Source of the DNA: a phage
Length of the DNA stretch: 64,000 nt
Reading direction: 5' to 3' (one strand)
Assembly (NCBI GenBank): GCA_036253495.1
Contig: GCA_036253495.1_4125.1
The notes under the pieces were generated by a model. That model was not told where the DNA came from. It saw only the letters and a list, made by a program, of their open reading frames with translations, and ran no database searches. The translations under genes were made by a program, and so were the position numbers. Below are positions 17,232 through 37,208 of the stretch, piece by piece. Position 1 is the stretch's first letter, and every line of letters starts with the position of its first letter.

Positions 17232-17504
17232 ATGGACTATCGAGTACTGAATAGAACATATAAAGCTTTATACAAAACATATATTGAAAGTAAAGTACAT
17301 AATCCTATCATTTATAAAAATCCAGTTTATATTATATGGAATGAATATTTTACAATGATTCAAAATTACTTTTACTCTAACGAAATCTTTATAGATGGTG
17401 AAATGCGTAAGCTAACACGCGTTGATAGTATAGGTGGTGAAATTGTGTTATTCTATACTGATTCTATTATTGGACAACAATCTATAAATTTAGAGATATT
17501 ATAA
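17232..17504 (+). CDS. small protein, IG-motif paralog family
   Basis: 90 aa; N-terminal MDYRVLNRTYK and central SNEIFIDGE. Confidence 0.65.
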   Translation: MDYRVLNRTYKALYKTYIESKVHNPIIYKNPVYIIWNEYFTMIQNYFYSNEIFIDGEMRKLTRVDSIGGEIVLFYTDSIIGQQSINLEIL

Positions 17505-17770
17505 TGAATTATAAGGATTTACATTTCACCTATAAACTAACATTTTATATGTATCGTTATGCTGATAACAACTTCATGGATAATGCATTTTATCATCGTT
17601 TGTGGAGTGATTATATAAATTCTTTACGTGAACATTTTATAGGTACTATAATTCAATACGAAGGTAAAACAGTAAAAATATTTCAAGTTGATAGTTACAA
17701 CGGGGATCTATGCTTCAAGGGTAGAGATTCTAGTGATGGATTACATGAGATTTATATCTATGAATTATAA
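17504..17770 (+). CDS. small protein, IG-motif paralog family
   Basis: 88 aa; MNYKDLHFTYK...LREHFIGTII. Confidence 0.65.
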   Translation: MNYKDLHFTYKLTFYMYRYADNNFMDNAFYHRLWSDYINSLREHFIGTIIQYEGKTVKIFQVDSYNGDLCFKGRDSSDGLHEIYIYEL

Positions 17771-18035
17771 GGATTTACAATTCACGTACAAAATTCTTCA
17801 TGAACAATATGAACGTGGTGAAGGAATATTAACTTACGATGAACGAGATTTTTTTCTTACATTGTGGTGTGAATATTTGGCAATGATTAACGAGATTTTT
17901 GTTGATAAAGAATATATGATTGACGACATGACTGTACGTATTATCAGAATTAAAAGTTATAATGGAAGTCTTGTTGGAATTTACTATAACAATGAAAAGG
18001 CGAAAAGCGGATTTGTTGATTTGGAGTATCTATGA
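17760..18035 (+). CDS. small protein, IG-motif paralog family
   Basis: Track ORF 17688..18035 trimmed to the ATG giving MNYKDLQFTYK, matching paralog N termini. Confidence 0.65.
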   Translation: MNYKDLQFTYKILHEQYERGEGILTYDERDFFLTLWCEYLAMINEIFVDKEYMIDDMTVRIIRIKSYNGSLVGIYYNNEKAKSGFVDLEYL

Positions 18036-18295
18036 ACTATAATGATTTACAATTCACGTATCAACTTTTATATGATGATATGAATAACGAATTAGGTTTC
18101 TACTATGAAGTACGTAATAAAATATGGTCAAATTATCTATCTGAGATACAACATCATTTTATAGGACTTCCAATACGTAGAAATAATAAAAACTATCGTT
18201 GTACTGATGTAGTAAGTCATAGAGGTAGGTTGCGTTTAGAATTCTACCGCAGAGACGGGGACTTCATTGGTATAAATTTACTGGATTTTAAATGA
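18032..18295 (+). CDS. small protein, IG-motif paralog family
   Basis: 87 aa; MNYNDLQFTYQ...IQHHFIGLPI. Confidence 0.65.
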   Translation: MNYNDLQFTYQLLYDDMNNELGFYYEVRNKIWSNYLSEIQHHFIGLPIRRNNKNYRCTDVVSHRGRLRLEFYRRDGDFIGINLLDFK

Positions 18296-18358
18296 TGAAA
18301 AACAACTTAAAGGAAATACAAGTATTTTATAGATTCTTATACTTGTCATATGTAACAG

Positions 18359-18580
18359 ATGAGTACTATGAAAGTGTGTATTATTTTTTTATGGCAACAT
18401 TACCGTACTATAGTAAGAGATTTATATATAGGAAAATCTATCATATCCAATGGTGAAAAATGTACCTGTACAGATGTTGTTAGTTTTAATGGTTCTTTAA
18501 CACTGTGTTTCAGATGCGATAATAATAGTGGGTCATTTTCATTAAACGTATATCAGTTAGAAGGAATAAATTTTGAATAA
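18359..18580 (+). CDS. small protein, IG-motif paralog family
   Basis: 73 aa; RDLYIGKSII...CTCTDVVSFNGSL resembles neighbours. Confidence 0.55.
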   Translation: MSTMKVCIIFLWQHYRTIVRDLYIGKSIISNGEKCTCTDVVSFNGSLTLCFRCDNNSGSFSLNVYQLEGINFE

Positions 18581-18773
18581 GTGTCCATATTGTAACAGTA
18601 CTCAATTAGCTCGTTTCCGCTTAGATTCAGACTGGGCCACTGGTGCTGGGGATTTCTTTCCCATCAATGATGATGCGGAATACACTGAAGAACAGCACAA
18701 AGATTTTGATAAATCATGGCGACCTGACATTGAGTGCATTTATTGCCTTAATTGTGAGCGTGTACATGACTAA
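18573..18773 (+). CDS. small zinc-ribbon protein
   Basis: 66 aa; CPYCN ... CIYCLNC cysteine pairs. Confidence 0.55.
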   Translation: MNKCPYCNSTQLARFRLDSDWATGAGDFFPINDDAEYTEEQHKDFDKSWRPDIECIYCLNCERVHD

Positions 18774-19029
18774 AGCTGAACTAATAGTTCATACATATAA
18801 AATGATATACAGTACTGAGTTATCCTGTGGTGCAGATAATCCAGTACTGGACTATTTTATAGAATCTTTGAAAGAACATTATATTGGTAAATCACTGATT
18901 CTTAATAATATTAATTTCACTGTAAAGGATGTAGCACCTGGAAAAAACGTACTAATAGTATGTGTTACTTCATCTGATAACCCAGTATACCCAATAACAA
19001 TAATTTTTGAGGTATTAGGTGATTTATGA
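18766..19029 (+). CDS. small protein, IG-motif paralog family
   Basis: Track ORF 18643..19029 trimmed to ATG overlapping upstream stop; LKEHYIGKSLIL. Confidence 0.6.
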   Translation: MTKAELIVHTYKMIYSTELSCGADNPVLDYFIESLKEHYIGKSLILNNINFTVKDVAPGKNVLIVCVTSSDNPVYPITIIFEVLGDL

Positions 19030-19316
19030 ATATCATTTTAATACAGAAAACATATGCTATATTGGTGAAAGATTATTCCATTACATTCGATTCACAAGAA
19101 AGTGCTCTACATAACCTATACAAAAACGTAACACAAGAATACAGAAATATGTTTTCTGACTTAGTAGTAGGAAGATATTTCAGTACTAGAAAATATCCAA
19201 AACTTCAAGCAGAGGATGTTTCTTTTTATTTCAATGGTCATATTACTATTCATAGTTTAGACCAAAATTCACCAACGTACTTAAACTTTTCATTCGATGA
19301 GGTAACCTTTTTATGA
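19026..19316 (+). CDS. hypothetical protein
   Basis: ORF track; ATGA overlap. Confidence 0.6.
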   Translation: MNIILIQKTYAILVKDYSITFDSQESALHNLYKNVTQEYRNMFSDLVVGRYFSTRKYPKLQAEDVSFYFNGHITIHSLDQNSPTYLNFSFDEVTFL

Positions 19317-20834: not shown

Positions 20835-20839
20835 GTACA

Positions 20840-20867
20840 GGCCAGCATGGATTGCTGGTCTTTTTTG
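20840..20867 (+). terminator. rho-independent terminator
   Basis: Hairpin ccagca/tgctgg followed by TTTTTT. Confidence 0.6.
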
Positions 20868-22439: not shown

Positions 22440-22703
22440 ATGAATATCCAAGATAGATTGCAATTGTTGCACACACTTGAAGAAGCTGCTTTTGAACTTG
22501 TTAATAAAATTGCACAAGAACTCCCAAAAGGAACCAACATTCGTGTTCGTGAAATGGATTATTTAACGGGAGAAATTGAAGAAAAAGTTCTAACAGTGAT
22601 CAAAGTAACATACTATGAATCAGAGTTATCAATTCAATGTAAGTCAGATAATGGTTACGTTTCCTACTATGGCACAGATGTAGATATAGAGGTAATTAGA
22701 TGA
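22440..22703 (+). CDS. hypothetical small protein
   Basis: Track ORF 22395..22703 trimmed to ATG just after upstream stop. Confidence 0.55.
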   Translation: MNIQDRLQLLHTLEEAAFELVNKIAQELPKGTNIRVREMDYLTGEIEEKVLTVIKVTYYESELSIQCKSDNGYVSYYGTDVDIEVIR

Positions 22704-23845
22704 GTAATTTACGAGAAATATACAATGATTTAATGGAACTATGTGAATCTAATGATGCATTTTTCTATATAGATCACACAAGCCCTGGTGGTGGTTTATA
22801 CCGTGTATTCACCTATCGTCTGGCATCTTATACCGATTTCACAAATAAAAATGCACTAGAAACTCGTGGTTCTATGTGGGAAATTGATTCCAACGGAATT
22901 ATGATTCGTTGTGCAGCACGTACAATGAAAAAGTTCTTCAATGCATATGAAAACCCGTACACAATGTTCAGTACTGATACTACCTGTGATGATATTGCGG
23001 TTGTAATGCCTAAGCTAGATGGATCTATCATCAGCACATTCCGTGATAATGATGGTGAAATCCGTTGCAAATCACACACTTCGTTATCTTCTGACCATGC
23101 TATTAACAGTACTCGACTTTTGAACGAGAACCAAAATCTCTATCAATACATTGATGAAGCAGACCGTTTGGGCTATACTGTGAATCTGGAATACACAAGC
23201 CCAGAGTATCGAATTGTGTTACCATATCAGGTGGAACAGTTATTTGTTCTTAACGTTCGTCATCGTATTAGTGGTGAGTTGTTATGCGGTAAAGCACTAC
23301 GTGATAAGTTTCCATGCCTTTCACAGTACAGTACTAATATGACAGGTAATGACATTCATCATACATTCCCGATTATGCCTACATTTAAAGAGTCAATCGA
23401 TAAAGTACGTTCTATGATTGACATTGAAGGTTTTGTGTGTATAATGAAAGATGGTACAATGTGCAAAATCAAAACTGACTGGTATTGCTCTTTGCATTTA
23501 ACAAAAGATTCCATTCTTATTGATTCCCATTTATATGAAGCTGTACTGACTGGTGCAAGTGATGACTTAAAACAATTGTTCAGTACTGATACATATGCTA
23601 TGGATAAGATATTAAGAATGGAACAATTGGTATTTTCGTGCTATAATGCTTTACAAGATGAGGTAGAAAGCTTCGTCCATGCATACAAGCACTTAGAGCG
23701 AAAGGAATTCGCACAAAAGGTTCAGCAAGATTTACCGAATGTATTGAACCGACAAGGCTTGGCCTTTGCGTTGTACAATGGCAAAAGTGTCGATTATAAA
23801 GAGACTTTACTAAAGTACTACAAAGATGTACTAAAGGATTTTTAG
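22700..23845 (+). CDS. rnlA: RNA ligase 1 (T4 RnlA-like)
   Basis: 381 aa; nucleotidyltransferase motif I KxDG (VMPKLDGSI); N-terminal and C-terminal blocks (EIYNDLMELCE, IMKDGTMCKIKTDWY, GASDDLKQLF) colinear with T4 RNA ligase 1 as recalled. Confidence 0.85.
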   Translation: MSNLREIYNDLMELCESNDAFFYIDHTSPGGGLYRVFTYRLASYTDFTNKNALETRGSMWEIDSNGIMIRCAARTMKKFFNAYENPYTMFSTDTTCDDIAVVMPKLDGSIISTFRDNDGEIRCKSHTSLSSDHAINSTRLLNENQNLYQYIDEADRLGYTVNLEYTSPEYRIVLPYQVEQLFVLNVRHRISGELLCGKALRDKFPCLSQYSTNMTGNDIHHTFPIMPTFKESIDKVRSMIDIEGFVCIMKDGTMCKIKTDWYCSLHLTKDSILIDSHLYEAVLTGASDDLKQLFSTDTYAMDKILRMEQLVFSCYNALQDEVESFVHAYKHLERKEFAQKVQQDLPNVLNRQGLAFALYNGKSVDYKETLLKYYKDVLKDF

Positions 23846-23874
23846 TACTAACTAGCCCAGCACAAGGAGAAGTG

Positions 23875-24129
23875 ATGGCTAAACCTAAGTATAAAAATGA
23901 TGGTTCCCTTTCTCCTACTGAGTTCAGGAAAATACAACAAGAAATCGATGATTTACAGCACAAACGCTCAATGAAAGGTGTGAAGATTAGTAAGAAGCGA
24001 ATCGAGAATACTTTTGGGTGTAGTAGTACTGAATATAAGAAGAAAAGGAAACCAAAGGATGTTAAGCCGAGAATACATGATGTAACTCGCTATACATCAA
24101 AACGTGAAAATAAATTCGATCCACTATAA
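23875..24129 (+). CDS. small basic protein, hypothetical
   Basis: Track ORF trimmed to ATG with AAGGAGAAG RBS; Lys/Arg-rich. Confidence 0.6.
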   Translation: MAKPKYKNDGSLSPTEFRKIQQEIDDLQHKRSMKGVKISKKRIENTFGCSSTEYKKKRKPKDVKPRIHDVTRYTSKRENKFDPL

Positions 24130-24138
24130 GGAGTTCAT

Positions 24139-24375
24139 ATGAAAGTTGAAGTTCAGCATAGTATTGTTCAGGATATGTCAGTGGTTAAGTTTCTTTCTCT
24201 GAAAGATTACTTCAGATGTATCAAGTTCCTTGAAGAATCTCAATTACAGTGGACCCCCTTAAAGTACAGTTCATCCAATGACACTGCTAGTATTCGTTGT
24301 GATGAAGCTGTACTTGTAAAAATCTCCAAGCGATTTGGAGTTGGGAAATACAATGAAAAACAATCATTCAAGTGA
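24139..24375 (+). CDS. hypothetical protein
   Basis: ORF track. Confidence 0.6.
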   Translation: MKVEVQHSIVQDMSVVKFLSLKDYFRCIKFLEESQLQWTPLKYSSSNDTASIRCDEAVLVKISKRFGVGKYNEKQSFK

Positions 24376-24607
24376 TTTGTTATATTATAAAGTACTATCA
24401 GAATGTTTGACAGATGTATTGTACCGTGAGAGTAATACTCTACGTGCAAAATATATTAACAAAAGAGTACGTTATAAATCATCTTATGATGGGATGAATG
24501 TTTATGGTAAAATCACTAATGTATATGTAGATGATGATTTTACATTGAATATCACTGTCGATAATTGTATTGGTATCTCAATTGATGATATTATTGAGGT
24601 AATCTAA
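24353..24607 (+). CDS. small protein, IG-motif paralog family
   Basis: Track ORF 24335..24607 trimmed to internal ATG; LRAKYINKRVRY. Confidence 0.55.
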   Translation: MKNNHSSDLLYYKVLSECLTDVLYRESNTLRAKYINKRVRYKSSYDGMNVYGKITNVYVDDDFTLNITVDNCIGISIDDIIEVI

Positions 24608-24918
24608 TGAATAAAGCATTAAAAGAACTTCATAATTTAATGAATGCAGAAATTGAATTAACTAATACTATTTCTGAAATTGTTCATGATATGATTACAC
24701 AATACAAGAAATCACTCATTGGTAAGAAAGTTGAATGCTGGGATTACAACACTAAAACATGGTTCGAAACTATCATTAGTGATGTTAATGTTAAATTTCA
24801 TGTAGTTACTCATCACATTTCTGACGAGTGCTATGTAGAAGTAACTATAGGACACAACACGCGACATGAACGTTTTTCGTGGTACAATCTAAAGAATGTG
24901 AAATTTATTGAGGATTAA
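24607..24918 (+). CDS. small protein, IG-motif paralog family
   Basis: 103 aa; KKSLIGKKVEC. Confidence 0.6.
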   Translation: MNKALKELHNLMNAEIELTNTISEIVHDMITQYKKSLIGKKVECWDYNTKTWFETIISDVNVKFHVVTHHISDECYVEVTIGHNTRHERFSWYNLKNVKFIED

Positions 24919-25851
24919 ATGCCAACTATTACACTAACAGTTGGATTGCCAGGATGTGGTAAAACCACGTGGGCAGTGCAAGAAATTAAAAAAGCAAAGT
25001 CCAAGACTATCAACATCAACCGTGATGATATTCGAGAGTCTATGGCTGGGTCACATGATGCTTATAAATTCACTGATGCGAACGAGAAGTACGTAACTAA
25101 TCAACAGTTCAGTGCAGCAAACGCCGCAGCAGCGAATGGATGGAACATTATTGTGTCCGATACGAACCTGAAACAAGGTTTTCGTGATGAATGGAAACGT
25201 TGGGCTAAAGATAATGGCTACGACTACAAAGAAAAGAACTTCTACGAAGATTTTGTACCGAATGAAGACCGTGGTGCAGATGTTCATGAATTCTTTAAGA
25301 TTAAGGAATTCGTGAAGCTCTGTAAGAAACGCAACCTTCTTCGTGAGCGTTCAGTACAAGATGAAATCATTGACACTATGGCAGATACGTACTATTATAG
25401 TAAGGCGATGCACATTGGTTACTATGGTAATGCACGTGAAGCTGCTATCATTGTTGATATCGACGGTACTCTTGCTCATAAGTGGGGACGTAACCCGTTT
25501 GATGAAAGTACTGTCCTTCAGGATACACCAGATGAAGAAGTAATTCTGTCTGTCATTGCTGAGGCTGTTTTCCATAAGCGTAAGGTAATCGTCATGAGTG
25601 GGCGTACTGAAGGGTGTCGTGCTGATACTGAACAGTGGCTTAAGAATTGGGGCATTCCCTACGATGTATTGTTAATGCGAGCTATCGATGATAAACGTCC
25701 TGATGATGTTGTCAAATTCGAGTTGTATATGAATAACGTTGTTAATCATTACGATGTTAAGAAAGTATTTGATGACAGGGCCGCCGTTGTATTCATGTGG
25801 CGTAAGCTACTAGGCTTGAAAGTATTTCAGGTGGAACCTGGACTATTTTGA
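24919..25851 (+). CDS. pseT: polynucleotide 5-prime kinase / 3-prime phosphatase (T4 Pnk-like)
   Basis: 310 aa; N-terminal P-loop GLPGCGKTT; C-terminal HAD phosphatase motif IVDIDGTLA; colinear with T4 Pnk as recalled. Confidence 0.85.
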   Translation: MPTITLTVGLPGCGKTTWAVQEIKKAKSKTININRDDIRESMAGSHDAYKFTDANEKYVTNQQFSAANAAAANGWNIIVSDTNLKQGFRDEWKRWAKDNGYDYKEKNFYEDFVPNEDRGADVHEFFKIKEFVKLCKKRNLLRERSVQDEIIDTMADTYYYSKAMHIGYYGNAREAAIIVDIDGTLAHKWGRNPFDESTVLQDTPDEEVILSVIAEAVFHKRKVIVMSGRTEGCRADTEQWLKNWGIPYDVLLMRAIDDKRPDDVVKFELYMNNVVNHYDVKKVFDDRAAVVFMWRKLLGLKVFQVEPGLF

Positions 25852-25857
25852 TTATTA

Positions 25858-25892
25858 CAAAGGGATCAGTACTGATCCCTTTTCTTTTAATT
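25858..25892 (+). terminator. rho-independent terminator built on a perfect 20 nt palindrome
   Basis: agggatcagtactgatccct (perfect inverted repeat with CAGTACTG core and two GATC sites) followed by a T-rich tract. Confidence 0.7.
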
Positions 25893-25903
25893 TAGGTGAT
25901 ATA

Positions 25904-26164
25904 ATGGATAATAGTTATGATGTACATTTCAAACAATGCCAGTTGGTTTTACACTCCCTAATGGAAGAGTTGCGAATCAAGTACATAGGCAAAATTGCTA
26001 CATGTTTATCAACTGGAAGACGTGGGCAAATTGTAGAGATTTATTATTCTCCACTTAGTGATGAAATTAAAATAAAAGCTAAAATATTCCTAACTGGATC
26101 TAACAATTTCTTGGGTGAACATATGGTAAAAATTATCTCTGAATTATCGATAACGGATGAATAA
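25904..26164 (+). CDS. small protein, IG-motif paralog family
   Basis: 86 aa; LRIKYIGKIATC. Confidence 0.65.
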   Translation: MDNSYDVHFKQCQLVLHSLMEELRIKYIGKIATCLSTGRRGQIVEIYYSPLSDEIKIKAKIFLTGSNNFLGEHMVKIISELSITDE

Positions 26165-26166
26165 AC

Positions 26167-26433
26167 ATGGATATTAATAAAGATTTTAGATTTATCAATT
26201 CGCATATACAAGTACTGAAAACATTAGTAAAACAAGTATCAGAAAAATACACAGGAACTTATGTTAGATGTGCTTTTGATGCAAATGACTGGCAACGAAT
26301 TATAAAAATAGATTCAGTTTATCTTGATACAAATAATAGTATTACAGTTTCAGGTATTGATATGTATGGTCATCGATATCAATTTACTACAAGAGCCACA
26401 ATAACTACAGTGGATGGATATGAATACGAATGA
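26167..26433 (+). CDS. small protein, IG-motif paralog family
   Basis: 88 aa; VSEKYTGTYVRC. Confidence 0.65.
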   Translation: MDINKDFRFINSHIQVLKTLVKQVSEKYTGTYVRCAFDANDWQRIIKIDSVYLDTNNSITVSGIDMYGHRYQFTTRATITTVDGYEYE

Positions 26434-26719
26434 ATTCCAAGCATTATTGAAAACATTATATCTTCTTAAAGAAGAATCTCTTGCAATGTATAATGAAAAA
26501 CAATACAAGTTTGAAGAACAACTCATTCATTTTCATGATGAATATCTTGACTTTTTGAATAAAAAATACTCAAATGTTCAGTGCAAATATCGAGGTAGTG
26601 ATGTTATTATTACCGAAATCGAATCCAGTACTTACGGATATCCATACCTTTGTTGCAAATATATCCCAAGTAATATAACATTTCGCTCAAGAATGTATTC
26701 GAGGTTTATTTTTTCATGA
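26414..26719 (+). CDS. small protein, probable family member
   Basis: 101 aa; ORF track. Confidence 0.6.
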   Translation: MDMNTNEFQALLKTLYLLKEESLAMYNEKQYKFEEQLIHFHDEYLDFLNKKYSNVQCKYRGSDVIITEIESSTYGYPYLCCKYIPSNITFRSRMYSRFIFS

Positions 26720-26997
26720 ATAATGATTCATTGAAGTTTTTTTATTATCATTATCGTATTTTACGTAGTTTATATTTTTCAGAATCCGATGAAAGATTAC
26801 TAACATCATTATCAGTACTGATGGATAATTACGAGAACGAATTATCAAAAGTGGTTTTTGGTGTCAATGTTCTAGATGATACCGATTTAACATGGACAAT
26901 TATTGAAGTGGCGACCTGGAATGGTAATATTTTGTACAGGTGCGAACGAGCAGGTTTTTTATGGGATGCAACATATGACGAGATTAGAATTGTATGA
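26716..26997 (+). CDS. small protein, probable family member
   Basis: 93 aa; ATGA overlap. Confidence 0.6.
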   Translation: MNNDSLKFFYYHYRILRSLYFSESDERLLTSLSVLMDNYENELSKVVFGVNVLDDTDLTWTIIEVATWNGNILYRCERAGFLWDATYDEIRIV

Positions 26998-27274
26998 CAG
27001 GCAAGTGAAATTGATAAGAGATACTCGTCGTTTCTTTCATACTCAATTAGTAGACCCATGTTATGATATTTCCGATTTCCTTGAAACCTATCTCCTTGAT
27101 CTAACTACACCACTGCTTAAAAAATACGTAGGAACAAAAGCTATATATCTTGGAAGAGAAGTTGAAATTACCAACATATCATATTCTTATGGGGCATACA
27201 TGTATACGGCAAAATCTGATAATGGACAAAGATATTATGCAATACGATCAAGAGAACTTACTATTATTGGATAG
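26975..27274 (+). CDS. small protein, IG-motif paralog family
   Basis: Track ORF 26903..27274 trimmed to internal ATG; LKKYVGTKAIYLGREVEI. Confidence 0.55.
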   Translation: MTRLELYDRQVKLIRDTRRFFHTQLVDPCYDISDFLETYLLDLTTPLLKKYVGTKAIYLGREVEITNISYSYGAYMYTAKSDNGQRYYAIRSRELTIIG

Positions 27275-27302
27275 GCATCTTGCTATTCTTATCGACCTTG
27301 TG

Positions 27303-27566
27303 ATGGAAAGTGATGTAAAAATTTTTGAAAGTAGATTTCTTGAGGATTATAAAACTGAATTGCAAGAACTGTACAAAGGTAAAAAAGTATTACTTAGTAC
27401 TGGTGACTATGGTAAAATTGAGTACGTGTATTATGAATGGAAAAAGGTTATATATTTTATAAAAACCAAAATAAAATACCAAAATAAAACAAGAACCTAT
27501 AAAGCATATTACGATTCAAATGAGATAGAGATTATATATGACCAACACGTTAATAACAAAAAGTGA
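27303..27566 (+). CDS. small protein, IG-motif paralog family
   Basis: Track ORF 27150..27566 trimmed to first ATG after upstream stop; ELYKGKKVLL; start uncertain. Confidence 0.5.
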   Translation: MESDVKIFESRFLEDYKTELQELYKGKKVLLSTGDYGKIEYVYYEWKKVIYFIKTKIKYQNKTRTYKAYYDSNEIEIIYDQHVNNKK

Positions 27567-27861
27567 ATTAGATTATTTGAATTATATAAACAGATACTTT
27601 CTGATTCTATATAATATACTTCTTGAAGAACAATGCACTAAATCAAACCATCAGTTATATAACTATATTAACTGTATAATTAGTGAAATATATGAATCAT
27701 TGGAAAAGAGATTTAAGTACAGAACTATTAAGTGCGAAGATGATATTGTATATATTCATGGTGTTTTTGGTACAGGATATGGAATATTCGTTGATTATAA
27801 AATACACCCATTTGATCCGTACATAGAAAATAGTATGTACATAGAAGAGATTGAACTATGA
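27538..27861 (+). CDS. hypothetical small protein
   Basis: ORF track. Confidence 0.6.
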   Translation: MTNTLITKSELDYLNYINRYFLILYNILLEEQCTKSNHQLYNYINCIISEIYESLEKRFKYRTIKCEDDIVYIHGVFGTGYGIFVDYKIHPFDPYIENSMYIEEIEL

Positions 27862-28175
27862 CACAAGAAGAATATAATAAATTAATAATGTACGAGAATC
27901 ATTTTAATTATTGTCTGAAATGGTTATTGTACATTGATAACGTTGAGATGGATATGTACAGAAAAGAGGTGAATAAACGTGTTAAAGATTTCTATTACGA
28001 ATTGACTGATCTTTTTTATAATAATGTAGTATATGAAGCAAATACCAGTCGTGATTATGACCTTTATATCAAGCAAATATGGGGTACTGACTACGGTCTG
28101 ATGATTGATTGCAGTACTGATGTTAATACAGACAGACCCAGTACTACATTGTATCTGGATGAGATTTTCATATGA
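27858..28175 (+). CDS. hypothetical small protein
   Basis: ORF track; ATGA overlap. Confidence 0.6.
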   Translation: MTQEEYNKLIMYENHFNYCLKWLLYIDNVEMDMYRKEVNKRVKDFYYELTDLFYNNVVYEANTSRDYDLYIKQIWGTDYGLMIDCSTDVNTDRPSTTLYLDEIFI

Positions 28176-28474
28176 ATGAACTATTACTTTGTCATAAAAC
28201 ATACATTATGCTATTCAGAACGTGCCATGATATGCGAATTGAGGGGATACTAGACTACCCAACTATGATGATTAACTTCAGGGTGTTAATGGATTCATAT
28301 TCACAATCTGTTATTGATGCATTTGAAGGTAGAGAAATAAAGTTCAAAAATGCCAGGACAAATAATGAGCTATGTGATACAATTAAATCAGTGGGGATTT
28401 CGGTTCCAAATGTGTACGTAATCCCATTGATGTACGGAAAAGTAGTATCCACTAACGAAATTATTAGTATATGA
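28172..28474 (+). CDS. hypothetical small protein
   Basis: ORF track. Confidence 0.6.
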   Translation: MNELLLCHKTYIMLFRTCHDMRIEGILDYPTMMINFRVLMDSYSQSVIDAFEGREIKFKNARTNNELCDTIKSVGISVPNVYVIPLMYGKVVSTNEIISI

Positions 28475-28770
28475 TTAAAACATTATATGAAGCAGAAGAA
28501 ACATATAAACTTCTGTGGGAAACTTTTATTTTTGACAAATACTATAATAGAACTGAATGGTTAGAGGTAAGTAAAATATATCTTCAAATTTTAAATGATT
28601 ATTTTTGTCCGTTCGTTGCTGAATGTAAAAATAATCCAATTGAAGAAATTAATATAATCGAAATAGTAGATGGGTTTGGTGCGTGGTTGATATACCAAGA
28701 CAACTATCACTTTTCTAATTATATCGAAGATATCGGTAAAATAATTGTAATTAAAGGAGTCATACTATGA
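28471..28770 (+). CDS. hypothetical small protein
   Basis: ORF track. Confidence 0.6.
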   Translation: MIKTLYEAEETYKLLWETFIFDKYYNRTEWLEVSKIYLQILNDYFCPFVAECKNNPIEEINIIEIVDGFGAWLIYQDNYHFSNYIEDIGKIIVIKGVIL

Positions 28771-29384
28771 TTTATGCACTATACGTACTATACGTACTTG
28801 GTCTGGTTATTGGTTGGTTTTTGGCAAAATCTTACAACCGTAATGCACTGGCATACACAGTATTTGGTATTATTTTTACGCCAGTACTAGAACTAGGTTT
28901 ACTAATTATTATGGGTCGCCGTGACATGACACCAGTCATTGACGATAATCGTGATAAAGCAGTACATGATGTACCAGTTTTTGAAGGATATACGCCAACT
29001 TTAACTGTTGATGACGTTTACATTGATGGTGCTGCTGAAGAAGTTAAATCAGTTCAGGAAGAAGTTGAAGAAGTTCCAGTAAAAGAAGAACCACAACCAA
29101 AAGCATCAACAACTAAAACAAAAGCAAAAACTTCTAAGAAAACAAAAGGTCGCAAGACTAGCACTAAAAATACCAAAAAAACCAGTACAACTCGCAAAAG
29201 CACTAAAACTGATAAGGAAGCATCTTCCAGTACTACCAGTACTGATGATGGTACAAGCACTGTTCTACTGACAGCAGCAACAACTGCCGCAATTATCAGT
29301 ACTTCATCCTATAGCGACTCATCTTCCTCTTATGACAGTGGCTCTTGTGATAGTTCAAGCTCAAGTTCAGGAAGCTGTGATTAA
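28767..29384 (+). CDS. membrane-anchored protein with Lys/Thr/Ser-rich low-complexity tail
   Basis: 205 aa; two N-terminal hydrophobic helices, acidic linker, then KASTTKTKAKTSKKTKGRKTSTKNTKK... and Ser/Cys-rich C terminus. Confidence 0.6.
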   Translation: MIYALYVLYVLGLVIGWFLAKSYNRNALAYTVFGIIFTPVLELGLLIIMGRRDMTPVIDDNRDKAVHDVPVFEGYTPTLTVDDVYIDGAAEEVKSVQEEVEEVPVKEEPQPKASTTKTKAKTSKKTKGRKTSTKNTKKTSTTRKSTKTDKEASSSTTSTDDGTSTVLLTAATTAAIISTSSYSDSSSSYDSGSCDSSSSSSGSCD

Positions 29385-29728
29385 TGGTTCCGTTATCATC
29401 TGAACTAAGGTACTTCGAATCTCTCCTTGATCTTCAATCAGAATTCGTTAGTACCTTAAAAAATAAATTAATAGGCAAAAAAGTAAAATTCACTCAAGAG
29501 TATATTGACCACATCAATAAGGCTAAGGAGGATGAAGTAGATTCTGACTGGATTTATTGTGATGATGAAGCTTCTCATATCAACGAAAATACAGTTATGT
29601 TTATTACTTTGTTGCGAGTAAAGAATTCATCAATCTATGTTGATGTTGAATATGAAAATCCAAAAAGTTCTGAATGGTACGGATTCACTTACCGTTTAGA
29701 TCGTTTAGAACTAATAGAAGAGGAATAA
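29384..29728 (+). CDS. small protein, IG-motif paralog family
   Basis: 114 aa; LKNKLIGKKVKF. Confidence 0.6.
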   Translation: MVPLSSELRYFESLLDLQSEFVSTLKNKLIGKKVKFTQEYIDHINKAKEDEVDSDWIYCDDEASHINENTVMFITLLRVKNSSIYVDVEYENPKSSEWYGFTYRLDRLELIEEE

Positions 29729-29971
29729 ATGATTTTATTTTTTGCTTTGTATGGTGTAGGAGTACTGAGTACATTTATCAGTACTTTTCTTATCATCAAT
29801 TGGGGTTCTTTTAAAGATACCCCTACCACAATGATTAATATTAGTACCTGCTCTATGTTATCAGTACTGTGGCCTGTGTCGTTGGTGTATCTTTTCATTT
29901 CAATCTGTAAAGATTTTTACGATACACTAACAAAATTCAAGAAGAAGAAACATGACAAAGACGGAAATTGA
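29729..29971 (+). CDS. small membrane protein
   Basis: 80 aa; two hydrophobic segments. Confidence 0.55.
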   Translation: MILFFALYGVGVLSTFISTFLIINWGSFKDTPTTMINISTCSMLSVLWPVSLVYLFISICKDFYDTLTKFKKKKHDKDGN

Positions 29972-30206
29972 ACAGTTAAAGATGTTACAATCGTTATCTG
30001 ATGATTTTGTCCAACGTGCTAAGCACAAATATATTGGTCAAGAAATTCTTCTTAAACACTCCAGAGGTTGGCAAAAAATATGCATAAGAGATATGGGAAC
30101 ATATTATGGTGATGTGCGATATTACGTAGATTGCTATGTTAATGACCAAATTGCCAATACTCAAGTTGTCACCTATGATAAAATTATATGGATTAAAGAA
30201 CAATGA
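29952..30206 (+). CDS. small protein, IG-motif paralog family
   Basis: 84 aa; AKHKYIGQEILL. Confidence 0.6.
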   Translation: MTKTEIEQLKMLQSLSDDFVQRAKHKYIGQEILLKHSRGWQKICIRDMGTYYGDVRYYVDCYVNDQIANTQVVTYDKIIWIKEQ

Positions 30207-30946
30207 AACATTTCTTAGAAGTAACAGTTCCTGATGAAAAAGATTTGTATATAGTAGGAGACATTCACGGTAATGCAAAACTATGGGAACATACCAAGAA
30301 AGAATTTGGTATTACTCCTGAAGATTATGTATTCAGTTTAGGCGATTTAATTGACAGAGGTGAGCAAAGTGCTCACCTTTTGTTTGAGTTTTTATTCGCT
30401 GAGAATCGATATATGATCATGGGCAATCATGAATCGATGTGTATTGATTCTGCAACTCATCGTGACTGGTATCATTGCTGGACACAGAATGGGGGCGATA
30501 AGTTCCTGGAAGAAGTTGGTGTATCAGGAGTGGAATTCTTCCGTCAGTACTTGAACCAGCTACCTATGATTATCCAAATCAATCACAGAGGACTCAAGAT
30601 TGGCCTCGTACATGCAAGTGTAGACCTTAAGCACACTGACTGGAATAAGTTCATTACTGGGACAAAATCAATGTCCAGTGATACAATTGAGTCATGCCTA
30701 TGGGACAGAAAGACATTTGATTTCTGTAAAGCTAACAACGTCTTTAATGCACCACGTATTGCTAACGTCGATTACGTTCTTAGTGGTCATACCGCTGTGT
30801 TTGATCCCCTAATTTATGGAAACCGTATCTGGATTGACAGTCAGTTCCTTACTGGTGATTTGACTATTGCTACCCCACAAGGTGGTAAGATGCGTTATTT
30901 GCGTAAAGAAAAAGACGAATATTCATTCAGTCGATTCAAAAGGTAA
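30203..30946 (+). CDS. serine/threonine protein phosphatase (PPP-family metallophosphatase)
   Basis: 247 aa; motifs GDIHGN, GDLIDRG, GNHE. Confidence 0.85.
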   Translation: MKHFLEVTVPDEKDLYIVGDIHGNAKLWEHTKKEFGITPEDYVFSLGDLIDRGEQSAHLLFEFLFAENRYMIMGNHESMCIDSATHRDWYHCWTQNGGDKFLEEVGVSGVEFFRQYLNQLPMIIQINHRGLKIGLVHASVDLKHTDWNKFITGTKSMSSDTIESCLWDRKTFDFCKANNVFNAPRIANVDYVLSGHTAVFDPLIYGNRIWIDSQFLTGDLTIATPQGGKMRYLRKEKDEYSFSRFKR

Positions 30947-30951
30947 TTATT

Positions 30952-31230
30952 ATGCATGACATGATTGATAGTGCATTAACCGAATTTAACTTTTTTAAAA
31001 AATCACTCGATACAATAATCAATGATACCAACCAACAAATGAAAGACCATTTAAGTGATAAATTGGTTGGTCGTTGGGTTGAGCTACCATATATAGATGG
31101 AACTACTGTTGGTGTGATTCATAGAATTGTAACAATTCATGAAGTGAAGGTGTATGTTGAAATTTTGGTTGACAATGAAACTAACAAATGTTTTGTACAA
31201 TTAAGCACTGAAGATTTAACTTTTTTATAA
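30952..31230 (+). CDS. small protein, IG-motif paralog family
   Basis: 92 aa; LSDKLVGRWVEL. Confidence 0.6.
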   Translation: MHDMIDSALTEFNFFKKSLDTIINDTNQQMKDHLSDKLVGRWVELPYIDGTTVGVIHRIVTIHEVKVYVEILVDNETNKCFVQLSTEDLTFL

Positions 31231-31239
31231 GGATATAAA

Positions 31240-31467
31240 ATGAAAGTAATTTATGTTCAGGTTGAAAAATATCAAACTGAAGATGGTCGCATTTTTGATT
31301 CAGCTAAACAAGCTGAGCATCATGAACGTATTATTTCTGGTGTTCGTCGCATTTGTCCTAAATGTAACGGAACACAACAAGTTCCCGATGAAGAATTTCG
31401 TCGCTATTATGCATGTCCAGATTGTGATGGTAAAGGATATGTAGAAAAACAAGAGGTATGGAAGTGA
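31240..31467 (+). CDS. small DnaJ-type zinc-finger protein
   Basis: 75 aa; two CxxCxGxG repeats (CPKCNGTQ, CPDCDGKG). Confidence 0.6.
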   Translation: MKVIYVQVEKYQTEDGRIFDSAKQAEHHERIISGVRRICPKCNGTQQVPDEEFRRYYACPDCDGKGYVEKQEVWK

Positions 31468-31877
31468 AACTATATTGCTTAACAAACATGTACTGTCAGG
31501 GTGTTCAGGCTGGCATTCAGGCATTTCATGCTGGTATTAAACTCGTCAAAGATTATGAAGGTTCAGTATTCAGTACTCTAATCGATGAATGGTATAATGA
31601 GCACGAAACTATTGTAATTCTCAATGCTGGCAACCAAGATAAATTAACCACTCATTACGAGAATCTATCCAAACAGGGCAAGGTTCCATTTGCTAAATTC
31701 AATGAACCAGGTTTGAACGATACCCTCACTAGTGTAGCAGTACTATGCACTGAAGAAATGATTGATGACATGGCACTGATGCGTACTAACGACCCAATGA
31801 CTGATTTACAGCTATGTCACAAATACGGTCATATGTACGAAACACTAAAAGCTATGAGTACAATGAGGACTATTTGA
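31458..31877 (+). CDS. hypothetical protein
   Basis: ORF track. Confidence 0.6.
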   Translation: MEVKLYCLTNMYCQGVQAGIQAFHAGIKLVKDYEGSVFSTLIDEWYNEHETIVILNAGNQDKLTTHYENLSKQGKVPFAKFNEPGLNDTLTSVAVLCTEEMIDDMALMRTNDPMTDLQLCHKYGHMYETLKAMSTMRTI

Positions 31878-33073: not shown

Positions 33074-33082
33074 GGGAATATA

Positions 33083-34501: not shown

Positions 34502-34515
34502 CGGATGATAATATC

Positions 34516-35592: not shown

Positions 35593-35604
35593 CTGGAGGT
35601 GATT

Positions 35605-36396
35605 ATGAAATTTGTTGTAACGTCAGACGTACACGGTGGCACTGATTACCTCCATAGTGGTGATTACAGTGATACAGTACTGATCATTGCAGGGGACTTT
35701 GATGAAGCTAAACGCAGTCGTTATCGTACTGGTATCGAATCCCTGTGCAAGCAGTTCAAGAATGTAGTACTGGTTCCTGGCAACCACGAGTACTACGGTT
35801 CAAACATTCACAAGACTAATAAAGTTCTGTCCGATATGCAAGATGAGATTCCAAATTTCATCTTTTTGCAAAACAAATTTGTATGGCTGGATGGTGTCCT
35901 GCTCGTTGGTAGTACTCTGTGGACAGACTTTGACAAAGGTAATTCCATGACGAAGTTTGATGCTCGTCAGAAGATGAACGATTACAAACATATTCGTCAT
36001 GGAACAACATCCGAGCCTTGGCGTAAGAAACTGACACCCGAAGATACTGAGTTCATGCATCACAAAGATAAACAATTTATCAAAAATTCAGTTGACACAG
36101 TACGCTTAATGCAGGATAATGATTTCAAGGTCATCGTGATTACCCATCACGCACCGAGTTTTCAAAGTGTTTCGCCAAAATATAAAAACGATTCACTGAA
36201 TGGTTGTTACTGTTCAGACATGGATCAGTACATTGAAGATTTGGGTGCTGATGTTTGGATTCATGGTCATGTTCATAGTAGCTTTGATTACCACATCGGT
36301 AAGACACGTATCATTTGTAATCCAAGAGGTTACGAATCTTATAGTGGAGCTTGTGAGAATTTCGATTACAATCCCAAATTGGTATTCGAAATCTAA
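35605..36396 (+). CDS. calcineurin-like metallophosphoesterase
   Basis: Track ORF trimmed to ATG with GGAGG RBS; motifs SDVHGG, AGDFDE, GNHEYYG, GHVHSS. Confidence 0.8.
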   Translation: MKFVVTSDVHGGTDYLHSGDYSDTVLIIAGDFDEAKRSRYRTGIESLCKQFKNVVLVPGNHEYYGSNIHKTNKVLSDMQDEIPNFIFLQNKFVWLDGVLLVGSTLWTDFDKGNSMTKFDARQKMNDYKHIRHGTTSEPWRKKLTPEDTEFMHHKDKQFIKNSVDTVRLMQDNDFKVIVITHHAPSFQSVSPKYKNDSLNGCYCSDMDQYIEDLGADVWIHGHVHSSFDYHIGKTRIICNPRGYESYSGACENFDYNPKLVFEI

Positions 36397-36404
36397 GGAT
36401 TACT

Positions 36405-37183: not shown

Positions 37184-37208
37184 ACAAATACGAACACTGT
37201 GATATAAT
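37181..37208 (+). promoter_or_regulatory. sigma70-like early promoter (TAGACA-16-TGnTATAAT)
   Basis: TAGACA, 16 nt spacer, GTGATATAAT; about 36 nt upstream of the ClpP-like gene. Confidence 0.5.

What the first reader, a model, noticed from the sequence alone, without database searches (positions are those of the whole stretch)
22700..25851. tRNA-repair pair: RNA ligase 1 and polynucleotide kinase/phosphatase about 1 kb apart
In T4 these two enzymes together repair tRNAs cleaved by host anticodon nucleases. Their presence here, separated by four small ORFs, implies this phage meets similar defences. Well-established biology; noted for context.
Basis: established knowledge. Interest (0 to 1): 0.35.

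Follow-up and report, generated by a model that had tools for sequence, protein, structure and literature searches.

The report
Known phage tRNA-repair gene pair
This jumbo E. coli phage carries intact copies of the two T4-type enzymes that mend host-cut tRNAs (RNA ligase 1 and polynucleotide kinase/phosphatase); the pair is already annotated and discussed for this phage group, so it is ordinary apart from two small conserved genes of unknown function that always sit between them.

Summary
ORF 22700-23845 (+, 381 aa) is a T4 RnlA-family RNA ligase 1. ORF 24919-25851 (+, 310 aa) is a bifunctional polynucleotide kinase/3'-phosphatase. They lie 1,073 nt apart with four small ORFs between them.

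KxDG (K105-L-D-G108) and DxDGT (D180-I-D182-G-T) are intact. All 12 T4 Pnkp essential residues are conserved, as are 11 of the 12 T4 Rnl1 residues I checked. Both genes are under purifying selection (dN/dS 0.11).

The window is an Asteriusvirus jumbo coliphage, 98% identical to phage A4. There the same genes are already annotated, and the Rnl1 protein is 100% identical. An anti-Prr role has been published for the sister phage phAPEC6, so the finding is already known.

Three smaller points go beyond the finding:
- The order rnl1 then pnk, on the same strand, held in 53 of 53 linked loci from jumbo and T4-like phages.
- In the Rak2-like jumbo clade the conserved unit is a four-gene module, rnl1-ORF A-ORF B-pnk, usually ending in a terminator-like hairpin. 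ORF A (basic, 85 aa) and ORF B (78 aa) are clade-restricted and of unknown function.
- T4 motif Ia Lys119 is His, Gln or Asn throughout this clade.

The parts
22700..23845 (+). [quoted passage not shown]
   Evidence: Pfam, NCBIfam and PHROG hits. PDB sequence hit to T4 Rnl1 at E about 1e-55. 40% identity to T4 RnlA. 100% identical to A4_427 'RNA ligase'. AF2 model pLDDT 94.6, best fold match 2C5U at E 4e-32 over 388 columns.
23012..23023 (+). Ligase motif I, K105-L-D-G108 (AMP-attachment lysine; equivalent to T4 K99-E-D-G102)
   Evidence: Alignment A1. K, D and G are invariant in 119 homologues. Residue map.
23072..23077 (+). Ligase motif Ia, S125-H126 (T4 S118-K119): the T4 lysine is replaced by His
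   Evidence: At this column the 119 aligned sequences have H 46, K 41, Q 18 and N 14.
23426..23473 (+). Ligase motifs IV and V: E243-G244 ... K256-x-K258 (T4 E227-G228, K240, K242)
   Evidence: Invariant in 119 homologues. Residue map.
23872..24129 (+). ORF A: 85-aa very basic protein (pI 10.1, 24 K/R) of unknown function, conserved between rnl1 and pnk across the Rak2-like jumbo clade
   Evidence: PHROG 15306, unknown function. Found in 16 of 17 jumbo-clade loci at the same position, 57-63% identity in the 15 loci beyond the close Asteriusvirus L005. 96% identical to the PBECO4 ortholog, dN/dS 0.06. Alignment and pI. No Pfam or NCBIfam family.
24139..24375 (+). ORF B: 78-aa small alpha/beta protein (strand-strand-helix-strand-strand-helix) of unknown function, conserved between rnl1 and pnk and directly abutting pnk in most of the clade
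   Evidence: PHROG 14730. Found in 17 of 17 jumbo-clade loci, 60-71% identity. 30 homologues, all from this clade. Only 3 true clusters in the exhaustive search. 18 invariant columns. AF2 pLDDT 82. No significant PDB fold neighbour; BFVD gave only the RaK2 ortholog.
24353..24607 (+). ORF C: 84-aa lineage-specific small ORF found in A4 and this window only
   Evidence: Annotated as A4_430. No tblastn hit in 80 loci. Only marginal similarity to PBECO4 gp126 (E 0.03).
24607..24918 (+). ORF D: 103-aa Asteriusvirus-specific small ORF whose stop codon abuts the pnk start codon
   Evidence: PHROG 31355. Ortholog of PBECO4 gp126 (tblastn 1e-18, 37.5% identity). Absent from the other jumbo-clade loci.
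24919..25851 (+). pnk: bifunctional polynucleotide 5'-kinase / 3'-phosphatase (310 aa), with an N-terminal P-loop kinase and a C-terminal HAD phosphatase
   Evidence: Pfam HAD_PNKP 5.5e-42 (residues 175-310) and AAA_33 (residues 5-156). T4 Pnkp 1LTQ at 3e-36 and Pnkp1 4XRP at 1e-29. 37% identity to T4 PseT. Annotated as A4_432.
24943..24966 (+). Kinase P-loop G9-L-P-G-C-G-K15-T16
   Evidence: K15 is invariant; position 16 is S or T in 51 homologues.
25456..25470 (+). Phosphatase motif D180-I-D182-G-T184 (equivalent to T4 D165-V-D167-G-T)
   Evidence: Invariant in 51 homologues.
25859..25882 (+). Intrinsic-terminator-like hairpin (10-bp stem followed by a T-run) 8 nt after the pnk stop codon; probable 3' end of the module's transcript
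   Evidence: A GC-rich hairpin followed by a T-run sits in the same place in 9 of 13 jumbo-clade loci examined, with different stem sequences. It is absent after pseT in T4-like phages.

Best explanation
The region encodes a working T4-type RNA 'heal-and-seal' pathway.

- Healing: Pnkp removes the 2',3'-cyclic or 3'-phosphate through its C-terminal DxDxT acyl-phosphatase domain, and phosphorylates the 5'-OH through its N-terminal P-loop kinase.
- Sealing: Rnl1 joins the resulting 3'-OH and 5'-PO4 ends in three steps: lysine-AMP formed on K105, then AppRNA, then phosphodiester bond formation.
- Substrate: the C-terminal helical domain, by analogy with T4, directs the ligase to breaks in tRNA anticodon loops.

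The likely physiological role is counter-defence: restoring tRNAs cut by host anticodon nucleases of the PrrC or RloC type, or by similar abortive-infection RNases.

In this jumbo-phage clade the two genes are inherited as a compact co-oriented module, rnl1-ORF A-ORF B-pnk. It is probably co-transcribed and ends in an intrinsic terminator.

What is shown: family membership, fold, intact active-site residues, purifying selection and conserved linkage. What is inferred: enzyme activity, tRNA as the substrate, the defence context, and any role for ORFs A and B.
For: Family and fold.

Active sites: Rnl1 residues R56, K78, F80, K105, D107, G108, E164, E243, G244, K256, K258 and Y262 match T4 R54, K75, F77, K99, D101, G102, E159, E227, G228, K240, K242 and Y246. 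All are invariant or nearly so in 119 homologues. Pnkp residues K15, T16, D36, R39, R142, D180, D182, R191, R229, D262, D285 and D286 match all 12 T4 essential positions and are conserved in 51 homologues.

C-terminal domain: Pfam T4_Rnl1_C at 7e-15. It is all-helical in a pLDDT 94.6 model that aligns over its full length to 2C5U. PMC6379707 states that this domain gives T4 Rnl1 its anticodon-loop specificity.

Selection: dN/dS is 0.108 for both genes against PBECO4.

Linkage: 53 of 80 Rnl1 loci have a Pnkp within 10 kb. In every case it is downstream on the same strand, 0.5-4.2 kb away, including 17 of 17 jumbo-clade loci. T4 has the same layout.

Transcription unit: the genes overlap or abut, and a terminator-like hairpin follows pnk in the window and in 9 of the 13 jumbo-clade loci examined.

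Literature: an anti-Prr role is proposed for the Asteriusvirus phAPEC6. The rnlA homologue of the relative CBB is proposed to act in tRNA repair. Rnl1 plus PNK-HAD are described as a jumbo-phage RNA-repair system.

An Asteriusvirus relative carries only 6 tRNA genes, none for Lys, so it cannot simply replace PrrC's target tRNA.
Against: - No biochemical or genetic data exist for any Asteriusvirus enzyme.
- T4 motif Ia Lys119 is His126 here and H/Q/N throughout the clade. From my memory of Wang, Ho, Pei and Shuman, JBC 2003, this residue is essential for step 2, RNA adenylylation.
- The window holds no tRNA genes or other RNA-repair genes that would add context.
- Which host nuclease is countered, if any, is unknown.
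- T4 gp63 also has a ligase-independent tail-fibre-attachment activity, and that cannot be excluded here.
Confidence: 0.8

Rival explanations
1. The pair repairs RNA, but the physiological substrate is not PrrC-cut tRNA-Lys. It could be other tRNAs, or mRNA or rRNA cleaved by other host RNases that leave 2',3'>P and 5'-OH ends, such as RloC, HEPN or toxin-antitoxin RNases, or colicin-like anticodon nucleases. It could also be the phage's own RNA processing.
For: The jumbo-phage comparative study argues that different phage RNA ligases specialise against different RNase effectors. The motif Ia change (K to H/Q/N) and insertions in both enzymes relative to T4 could reflect a shifted substrate: a 17-aa insert in Rnl1 and a roughly 20-aa insert in the Pnkp kinase domain. 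ORFs A and B are clade-specific additions.
Against: The C-terminal tRNA-specificity domain of T4 Rnl1 is retained. Nothing in the sequence points to a different substrate. This is a refinement of the main explanation rather than a contradiction of it.
Confidence: 0.3
2. The ligase homologue is kept mainly for the non-catalytic tail-fibre-attachment activity known for T4 gp63. Pnkp acts mainly as a DNA 3'-phosphatase in phage DNA metabolism. On this reading the adjacency is inherited synteny, not a functional pair.
For: PHROG 562 and several GenBank records name the protein 'RNA ligase and tail fiber protein attachment catalyst'. The neighbourhood also holds DNA ligase and dCMP deaminase, as in T4.
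Against: Eleven of the 12 T4 ligase catalytic residues examined are invariant or nearly so across 119 homologues, and dN/dS is 0.11. That would not be expected if catalysis were dispensable. Order and orientation with Pnkp are conserved in 53 of 53 loci while the flanking genes turn over. All kinase-domain residues are also conserved, and a DNA 3'-phosphatase role alone does not need them.
Confidence: 0.07
3. The ligase is catalytically impaired or has a changed reaction, because the motif Ia lysine (T4 K119) is missing. It would stall at or skip the RNA-adenylylation step, so the pair would not perform T4-type sealing.
For: H126 replaces K119. The motif Ia basic side chain is thought to engage the RNA 5'-PO4 in step 2 (PMC6379707). 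From memory, and not verified here, T4 K119 mutants lose overall ligation.
Against: The substitution (H, Q or N) is shared by 78 of 119 homologues, which keep every other catalytic residue, keep the Pnkp linkage and evolve under purifying selection. These sequences pass the curated equivalog cutoff. K124 (T4 K117) is invariant in this segment and R122 (T4 L115) is conserved in most of the clade, so either could supply the charge (inference).
Confidence: 0.05

Closest known systems
Bacteriophage T4 RnlA (gp63, RNA ligase 1) and PseT (Pnkp), the tRNA-Lys repair pathway that counters the PrrC anticodon nuclease
   Same: Both enzymes have the same families and domain architectures. Identity to T4 is 40% for Rnl1 and 37% for Pnkp. 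Active-site residues are conserved, including KxDG and DxDGT. The gene order is the same (ligase upstream, kinase/phosphatase downstream, same strand), with a spacer of four small ORFs in both.
   Different: The spacer ORFs are unrelated to T4 alc, pseT.3, pseT.2 and pseT.1 (BLASTP and hhalign). Motif Ia Lys119 is His. Rnl1 has a 17-aa insertion after T4 residue ~190, and Pnkp has a ~20-aa insertion in the kinase domain. A terminator follows pnk here but not in T4-likes. The host phage is a 350-kb Asteriusvirus, not a Straboviridae member.
Annotated orthologues in Asteriusvirus and Rak2-like jumbo phages (A4_427/A4_432, PBECO4 gp129/gp125, phAPEC6, CBB_83, GAP32)
   Same: These are the same genes. 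Rnl1 is 100% identical to A4_427, and the region is 98.1% identical at the nucleotide level to phage A4. Identity to PBECO4 is 83% for Rnl1 and 89% for Pnkp. An anti-Prr or tRNA-repair role has already been suggested in print.
   Different: Nothing material. PBECO4-type genomes have three spacer ORFs rather than four, lacking ORF C.
Fungal and plant tRNA ligase Trl1 (Rnl6-clade ligase domain plus kinase and CPD healing domains)
   Same: Trl1 shares the Rnl1-like adenylyltransferase domain, including the N-terminal subdomain. It is the second-best fold match (E about 1e-12). It follows the same heal-and-seal logic.
   Different: Trl1 is a single polypeptide. It has a different C-terminal domain and requires a 2'-PO4 end. 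Its healing domains are a GTP-dependent kinase and a 2H phosphodiesterase, not a HAD phosphatase.
Clostridium thermocellum / Capnocytophaga-type bacterial Pnkp (e.g. Pnkp1, PDB 4XRP)
   Same: Same kinase-plus-HAD-phosphatase bifunctional architecture, with a full-length hit at E 1.4e-29.
   Different: It is a bacterial RNA-repair context with different partner proteins. It is less similar to the window protein than T4 Pnkp is.

Membership tests
T4 RnlA-family RNA ligase 1 (Rnl1) | Passes the curated family models (NCBIfam equivalog TIGR02308; Pfam PF09511) | tested here: met
   TIGR02308 scores 284.7 bits against a cutoff of 242.25. PF09511 scores 57.8 bits against a cutoff of 28.3.
T4 RnlA-family RNA ligase 1 (Rnl1) | Motif I KxDG with the AMP-accepting lysine | tested here: met
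   K105-L-D107-G108 aligns with T4 K99-E-D101-G102. K, D and G are invariant in 119 homologues.
T4 RnlA-family RNA ligase 1 (Rnl1) | Rnl1-specific N-terminal subdomain residues (T4 R54, K75, F77) and motifs III, IV and V (E159; E227-G228; K240, K242; Y246) | tested here: met
   The window has R56, K78, F80, E164, E243, G244, K256, K258 and Y262, all invariant or nearly so in the family.
T4 RnlA-family RNA ligase 1 (Rnl1) | Motif Ia lysine (T4 S118-K119). This is an essential residue of the T4 enzyme, but the family alignment shows it is not family-defining. | tested here: not met
   The window has S125-H126. Across 119 aligned sequences that carry both Rnl1 Pfam domains, the column is H 46, K 41, Q 18 and N 14. 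This marks a clade-level variant and is not grounds for exclusion. The essentiality of K119 is from my memory of Wang et al. 2003, which was not held. The general role of motif Ia is from PMC6379707.
T4 RnlA-family RNA ligase 1 (Rnl1) | C-terminal all-helical domain (the tRNA-specificity domain of T4 Rnl1) | tested here: met
   Pfam PF20819 T4_Rnl1_C at 7.2e-15, residues 269-367. Model residues 260-378 are all helical at pLDDT >85. The model aligns over its full length (388 columns) to 2C5U at E 4e-32, TM 0.62.
T4 RnlA-family RNA ligase 1 (Rnl1) | ATP-dependent sealing of 3'-OH/5'-PO4 RNA with preference for tRNA anticodon-loop breaks | not testable with these tools
   Needs biochemistry.
T4-type polynucleotide kinase/phosphatase (Pnkp) | N-terminal P-loop 5'-kinase with T4 K15, S16, D35, R38 and R126 | tested here: met
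   The window has K15, T16 (S to T, both found in the family), D36, R39 and R142. These are conserved in 51 homologues. Pfam AAA_33 at 3.7e-14.
T4-type polynucleotide kinase/phosphatase (Pnkp) | C-terminal HAD/DxDxT 3'-phosphatase with T4 D165, D167, R176, R213, D254, D277 and D278 | tested here: met
   The window has D180, D182, R191, R229, D262, D285 and D286, invariant in 51 homologues. Pfam HAD_PNKP scores 143.7 bits against a cutoff of 27.6.
T4-type polynucleotide kinase/phosphatase (Pnkp) | Both domains in one polypeptide, kinase first, colinear with the solved T4 enzyme | tested here: met
   Residues 2-309 align to residues 2-300 of 1LTQ at E 3e-36.
T4-type polynucleotide kinase/phosphatase (Pnkp) | Homotetramer; kinase, 3'-phosphatase and 2',3'-cyclic phosphodiesterase activities | not testable with these tools
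   Needs biochemistry or structure determination.
Phage tRNA heal-and-seal counter-defence system (T4 rnlA + pseT versus PrrC) | Both enzymes encoded together, co-oriented, with the ligase upstream | tested here: met
   True in the window and in T4. True in 53 of 53 linked IMG/VR loci, with gaps of 510-4184 nt.
Phage tRNA heal-and-seal counter-defence system (T4 rnlA + pseT versus PrrC) | A cognate host anticodon nuclease restricts phage mutants that lack either enzyme | not testable with these tools
   Needs phage genetics on prr+, rloC+ or similar hosts. I did not survey host genomes for such nucleases.

The most novel reading that the evidence does not exclude
In Rak2-like jumbo phages the repair unit is a four-gene module, and ORF A (basic, possibly nucleic-acid-binding) and ORF B (a clade-restricted small alpha/beta protein with 18 invariant columns, 12 of them polar) are unrecognised dedicated partners of the pathway. 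They might hold tRNA halves, target the enzymes, or inhibit the nuclease. On this reading the clade-wide loss of the motif Ia lysine in Rnl1 marks a real mechanistic variant of the RNA-adenylylation step.
Probability: 0.2. Interest if true: 0.55.

Novelty: already known. Interest (0 to 1): 0.18.

Why it matters
As stated, the finding adds little. T4-type Rnl1 and Pnkp are textbook counter-defence enzymes. These exact genes are already annotated in phage A4 and its relatives, and the anti-Prr idea is in print for this genus.

It is useful as context. It marks the phage as equipped to reverse tRNA cleavage, which matters for host range when Asteriusviruses are considered for therapy against E. 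coli strains carrying tRNA-targeting defences.

The parts that could repay work are the by-products:
- the strictly conserved rnl1-A-B-pnk module, in which two orphan proteins are as conserved as the enzymes;
- a natural, clade-wide replacement of a ligase residue reported as essential in T4.

Both are cheap to test and could refine the mechanistic picture of phage RNA repair.

Tried and rejected
- **Homology of the four spacer ORFs to T4 alc, pseT.3, pseT.2 and pseT.1.** BLASTP found nothing below E 0.01. Profile-profile hhalign gave probabilities below 1%. The 'four ORFs' parallel with T4 is positional only.
- **Function for ORF B.** No Pfam, NCBIfam or PHROG function. A confident AF2 model had no significant PDB neighbour: best E 0.06, TM below 0.55, with weak eIF1/SUI1 and ACT-like hits that I do not trust. 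BFVD returned only the RaK2 ortholog. An exhaustive profile search of 1.84 billion proteins found 3 true clusters and no domain fusions.
- **Function for ORF A.** No family hit even at E up to 10, and only 4 word-index homologues. The 'NTFGVSS..YKK' segment looks HTH-like to my eye, but I have no test supporting that.
- **Internal promoter driving pnk.** A perfect 12/12 sigma-70 consensus at 23418-23445 is not conserved even in PBECO4 and overlaps the motif IV codons. I rejected it as chance. Promoter-like sites overall are not enriched (43 found against 55 expected).
- **tRNA or structured RNA genes in the window.** None found.
- **Other RNA-repair genes in the window (Rnl2, RtcB, RlaP, CCA-adding enzyme).** None are annotated in the corresponding A4 region, which covers all but the first ~2 kb of the window.
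- **ORF C as a paralogue of ORF D or gp126.** The support is only marginal (E 0.03 and 0.13). My earlier global-alignment identity of 34% should not be read as homology.
- **Primary mutational papers on T4 Rnl1 (JBC 2003; RNA 2006).** Neither was held. The K119 essentiality statement therefore rests on my memory.

Full report
**1. The observation**

The + strand carries ORFs at exactly the coordinates given: 22700-23845 (381 aa) and 24919-25851 (310 aa). The 1,073 nt between them hold four small ORFs: A 23872-24129, B 24139-24375, C 24353-24607 and D 24607-24918. The nearest GenBank relative annotates the same four.

The genes are tightly packed. An upstream ORF overlaps the rnl1 start by 4 nt, B and C overlap, C and D overlap by 1 nt, and D's stop codon abuts the pnk ATG.

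**2. What genome this is**

The region is 98.1% identical over 4.5 kb to Escherichia phage A4 (ON286972, 355 kb, genus Asteriusvirus). It is 85-87% identical to about 35 other Asteriusvirus records, including PBECO4, Ecwhy_1, fEgEco12 and phAPEC6-like phages.

A4 annotates the two genes as 'RNA ligase' (A4_427) and '3'-phosphatase, 5'-polynucleotide kinase' (A4_432). The window's Rnl1 is 100% identical to A4_427. PBECO4 annotates gp129 and gp125 in the same way, with three spacer ORFs rather than four.

**3. Identity of the ligase**

- Pfam RNA_lig_T4_1 (1.8e-15) and T4_Rnl1_C (7.2e-15) both exceed their gathering scores.
- The NCBIfam equivalog 'T4 RnlA family RNA ligase' scores 284.7 bits against a cutoff of 242.25.
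- PHROG 562 hits at 3e-106.
- The solved T4 Rnl1 structures (2C5U, 5TT6, 9DO4) hit at E about 1e-55.
- Identity to T4 RnlA is 40%.
- An AF2 model built on 50 homologues has pLDDT 94.6. Its C-terminal third is all helical.
- The model's best PDB matches are the three T4 Rnl1 entries (E 4e-32 to 3e-30, 387-390 aligned columns, TM about 0.62). Fungal Trl1 ligase domains come next. The high global rmsd is what a different inter-domain angle would give.

I then checked residues in an alignment of 119 sequences: T4, the window protein and 117 database homologues.

- T4 R54, K75, K99, D101, G102, K117, E159, E227, G228, K240, K242 and Y246 are invariant.
- F77 has one Tyr exception. S118 has one Thr exception.
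- The window equivalents are R56, K78, F80, K105, D107, G108, K124, S125, E164, E243, G244, K256, K258 and Y262.

**4. One deviation in the ligase**

T4 motif Ia is S118-K119. The window has S125-H126.

The column splits by clade:

- Lys in 41 sequences, all 35-49% identical to the window. These are T4 itself and the more distant homologues.
- His (46), Gln (18) or Asn (14) in the other 78. All but five of those are at least 48% identical to the window. They are the Rak2-like jumbo-phage clade, which includes GAP32, CBB, fHe-Yen9-04, pEa_SNUABM_50 and the Asteriusviruses.
- The change mostly co-varies with T4 Q126 becoming His.

From memory (Wang, Ho, Pei and Shuman, JBC 2003), K119 is essential in T4 and is implicated specifically in step 2. 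That paper was not held, so I flag this as unverified. PMC6379707 does state that the motif Ia basic side chain is thought to engage the RNA 5'-PO4 in step 2, and that it contacts the ATP beta-gamma bridging oxygen.

I read this as a tolerated or compensated clade-level variant, not as loss of function. All 78 variant sequences keep every other catalytic residue, keep the Pnkp linkage, and evolve under purifying selection (sections 6 and 7).

**5. Identity of the kinase/phosphatase**

- Pfam HAD_PNKP (5.5e-42, residues 175-310) and AAA_33 (3.7e-14, residues 5-156).
- PHROG 505 at 4e-95.
- T4 Pnkp structure 1LTQ at 3e-36 over residues 2-309, and bacterial Pnkp1 4XRP at 1e-29.
- 37% identity to T4 PseT.

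In a local-pair alignment of 51 distinct sequences, all twelve T4 essential positions are conserved:

- Kinase: K15, S16 (Thr here; the family uses S or T), D35, R38 and R126.
- Phosphatase: D165, D167, R176, R213, D254, D277 and D278.
- Window numbering: K15, T16, D36, R39, R142, D180, D182, R191, R229, D262, D285 and D286.

DxDGT is D180-I-D182-G-T184. The first MAFFT alignment misplaced R126. HMMER and the larger alignment agree that it is conserved. The jumbo clade has a roughly 20-residue insertion in the kinase domain.

**6. Selection**

| Gene | aa identity to PBECO4 | dN/dS (dN, dS) |
|---|---|---|
| rnl1 | 83% | 0.108 (0.122, 1.12) |
| pnk | 89% | 0.108 (0.066, 0.62) |
| ORF A | 96% | 0.06 |
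| ORF B | 95% | 0.12 |

ORFs A and B also have unusually low dS (about 0.25).

**7. Linkage**

T4 has the same layout on one strand: rnlA, then alc, pseT.3, pseT.2 and pseT.1, then pseT.

I fetched 80 Rnl1-encoding IMG/VR loci with 10-kb flanks and searched them for Pnkp.

- 53 have a Pnkp.
- In all 53 it is downstream of rnl1 on the same strand, 510-4184 nt away.
- That includes 17 of 17 jumbo-clade loci, with gaps of about 715-1190 nt.
- The 27 loci without Pnkp include 26 environmental Rnl1 sequences 35-41% identical to the window and one truncated T4-like contig (L081).

These loci are not phylogenetically independent. Even so, the arrangement persists across two deep phage lineages while the neighbouring genes turn over. 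That supports functional coupling.

**8. The spacer**

ORFs A and B are present at the same position in 16 of 17 and 17 of 17 jumbo-clade loci respectively. Beyond the close Asteriusvirus L005 (96-97%), their identities are 57-63% for A and 60-71% for B, comparable to Rnl1 (58-65%) and Pnkp (53-63%). The immediate upstream and downstream genes and ORFs C and D are not conserved.

In most of the clade, B runs directly into pnk. The conserved unit is therefore rnl1-A-B-pnk.

*ORF A*
- It is strongly basic: pI 10.1, with 24 Lys/Arg in 85 residues. It has a conserved 'NTFGVSS..YKK' stretch.
- No family hit even at lenient thresholds.

*ORF B*
- It has 18 invariant columns in 31 sequences. Twelve of them are polar: H7, S8, Q11, D12, K17, Y24, Y43, S44, S45, S51, R53 and E56.
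- The model is confident, with strand-strand-helix-strand-strand-helix topology (pLDDT 82).
- There is no significant PDB fold neighbour. The viral structure library returned only its RaK2 ortholog.
- An exhaustive search found only three true clusters, with no fusions.

Neither A nor B is related to T4's spacer genes.

ORF D is the ortholog of PBECO4 gp126. ORF C is specific to the A4 lineage and has only marginal similarity to anything.

I cannot assign a function to A or B. Their retention inside the module is the only argument that they belong to the pathway.

**9. Transcription signals**

A terminator-like hairpin (10-bp stem plus T-run) lies at 25859-25882, 8 nt after the pnk stop codon. 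Another lies at 20839-20861.

A GC-rich hairpin followed by a T-run sits directly after pnk in 9 of 13 other jumbo-clade loci. The stem sequences differ, which suggests the structure itself is maintained. T4-like phages lack it. The module therefore probably ends a transcript.

Sigma-70-like promoter matches are not enriched (43 found against 55 expected). The one perfect match, at 23418-23445 inside rnl1, is not conserved.

**10. Context**

- The window has no tRNA genes and no Rfam hits.
- No other annotated RNA-repair genes appear in the corresponding A4 region.
- A close relative, fEgEco12, has six tRNA genes: Ser x2, Met, Asn and Thr x2. None is for Lys.

**11. Comparison with what is known**

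This is the T4 heal-and-seal system in a jumbo phage.

[quoted passage not shown] 1987.
- A 224-genome jumbo-phage survey describes Rnl1-type ligases working with PNK-HAD enzymes as a standard jumbo-phage RNA-repair system.

All defining features of both families that can be tested by sequence are met. The motif Ia lysine is the exception, and the family alignment shows that it is not family-defining.

**12. Verdict**

- Novelty: already known.
- Interest is low (0.18).
- Confidence is about 0.8 that these are active enzymes forming a tRNA/RNA repair pathway used against host RNases.
- The main uncertainty is which nuclease and which substrate. No experiment exists for this clade.
- The most novel reading my evidence leaves open is that ORFs A and B are dedicated pathway components and that the motif Ia change is mechanistically meaningful. 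I put that at about 0.2.

Noticed in passing
window 23872-24375 (ORF A, ORF B); loci L005-L021: Two small orphan proteins are conserved between rnl1 and pnk in essentially every Rak2-like jumbo phage, at identities matching the enzymes, while the flanking genes turn over. Against PBECO4 they also have about 4-fold lower synonymous divergence (dS 0.24-0.27) than rnl1 (1.12). That could mean recent recombination or a constraint at the nucleotide level.
   Followed up: partly
window 23075-23077 (H126 of Rnl1): T4 motif Ia Lys119 is His, Gln or Asn in 78 of 119 Rnl1 homologues (the jumbo-phage clade) and Lys in the rest. It mostly co-varies with T4 Q126 becoming His (window H133).
   Followed up: partly
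window 17232-19316 and 26716-26997; also 27538-28175: A tandem family of eight paralogous small ORFs (about 75-120 aa) was detected by iterative HMM search. Seven lie in a row upstream and one downstream of pnk. A separate paralogous pair lies at 27538-28175. Rnl1 and Pnkp sit within long runs of small genes of unknown function.
   Followed up: partly
window 23418-23445 (+): A perfect 12/12 sigma-70 consensus (TTGACA-16-TATAAT) lies inside rnl1, over the codons of ligase motif IV. It is present only here and in phage A4 and is lost in PBECO4 and beyond, so it is probably coincidental.
   Followed up: yes
window 25220-25340 (Pnkp residues ~102-140): A roughly 20-residue insertion in the kinase domain of Pnkp, between T4 residues ~118 and 119, is specific to the jumbo clade. 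Rnl1 likewise has a 17-residue insertion after T4 residue ~190.
   Followed up: no
window 22700-39522 compared with T4 127-137.5 kb (L004): There is loose synteny with T4's early region. In both genomes rnl1, pnk, a DNA ligase (A4_451, window about 33071-34489) and a dCMP deaminase (A4_461, window about 39043-39522) lie on one strand within about 17 kb, as with T4 rnlA, pseT, cd and gene 30. The position of T4 gene 30 is from my own knowledge. The order of ligase and deaminase is swapped.
   Followed up: no
loci L022, L024-L026, L029-L034, L036, L039, L041-L043, L045-L047, L049, L058, L062, L065, L071-L074: Twenty-six environmental Rnl1 loci (35-41% identical, Lys at motif Ia where sampled) have no T4-type Pnkp within 10 kb. 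They may use a different end-healing enzyme. One further locus without Pnkp, L081, is a truncated T4-like contig.
   Followed up: no
window 28767-29384 (+): A 205-aa ORF has a hydrophobic N-terminus and a long Ser/Thr/Lys-rich low-complexity tail ending in repeated SSSS/CD motifs. It is annotated as hypothetical in A4.
   Followed up: no
window about 45093-45845 and nearby (A4_471, A4_446, A4_455/467/469): The same + strand block carries a Sir2-like protein, a Ser/Thr phosphatase, and ClpP-like protease genes. These may be further host-takeover or counter-defence functions.
   Followed up: no
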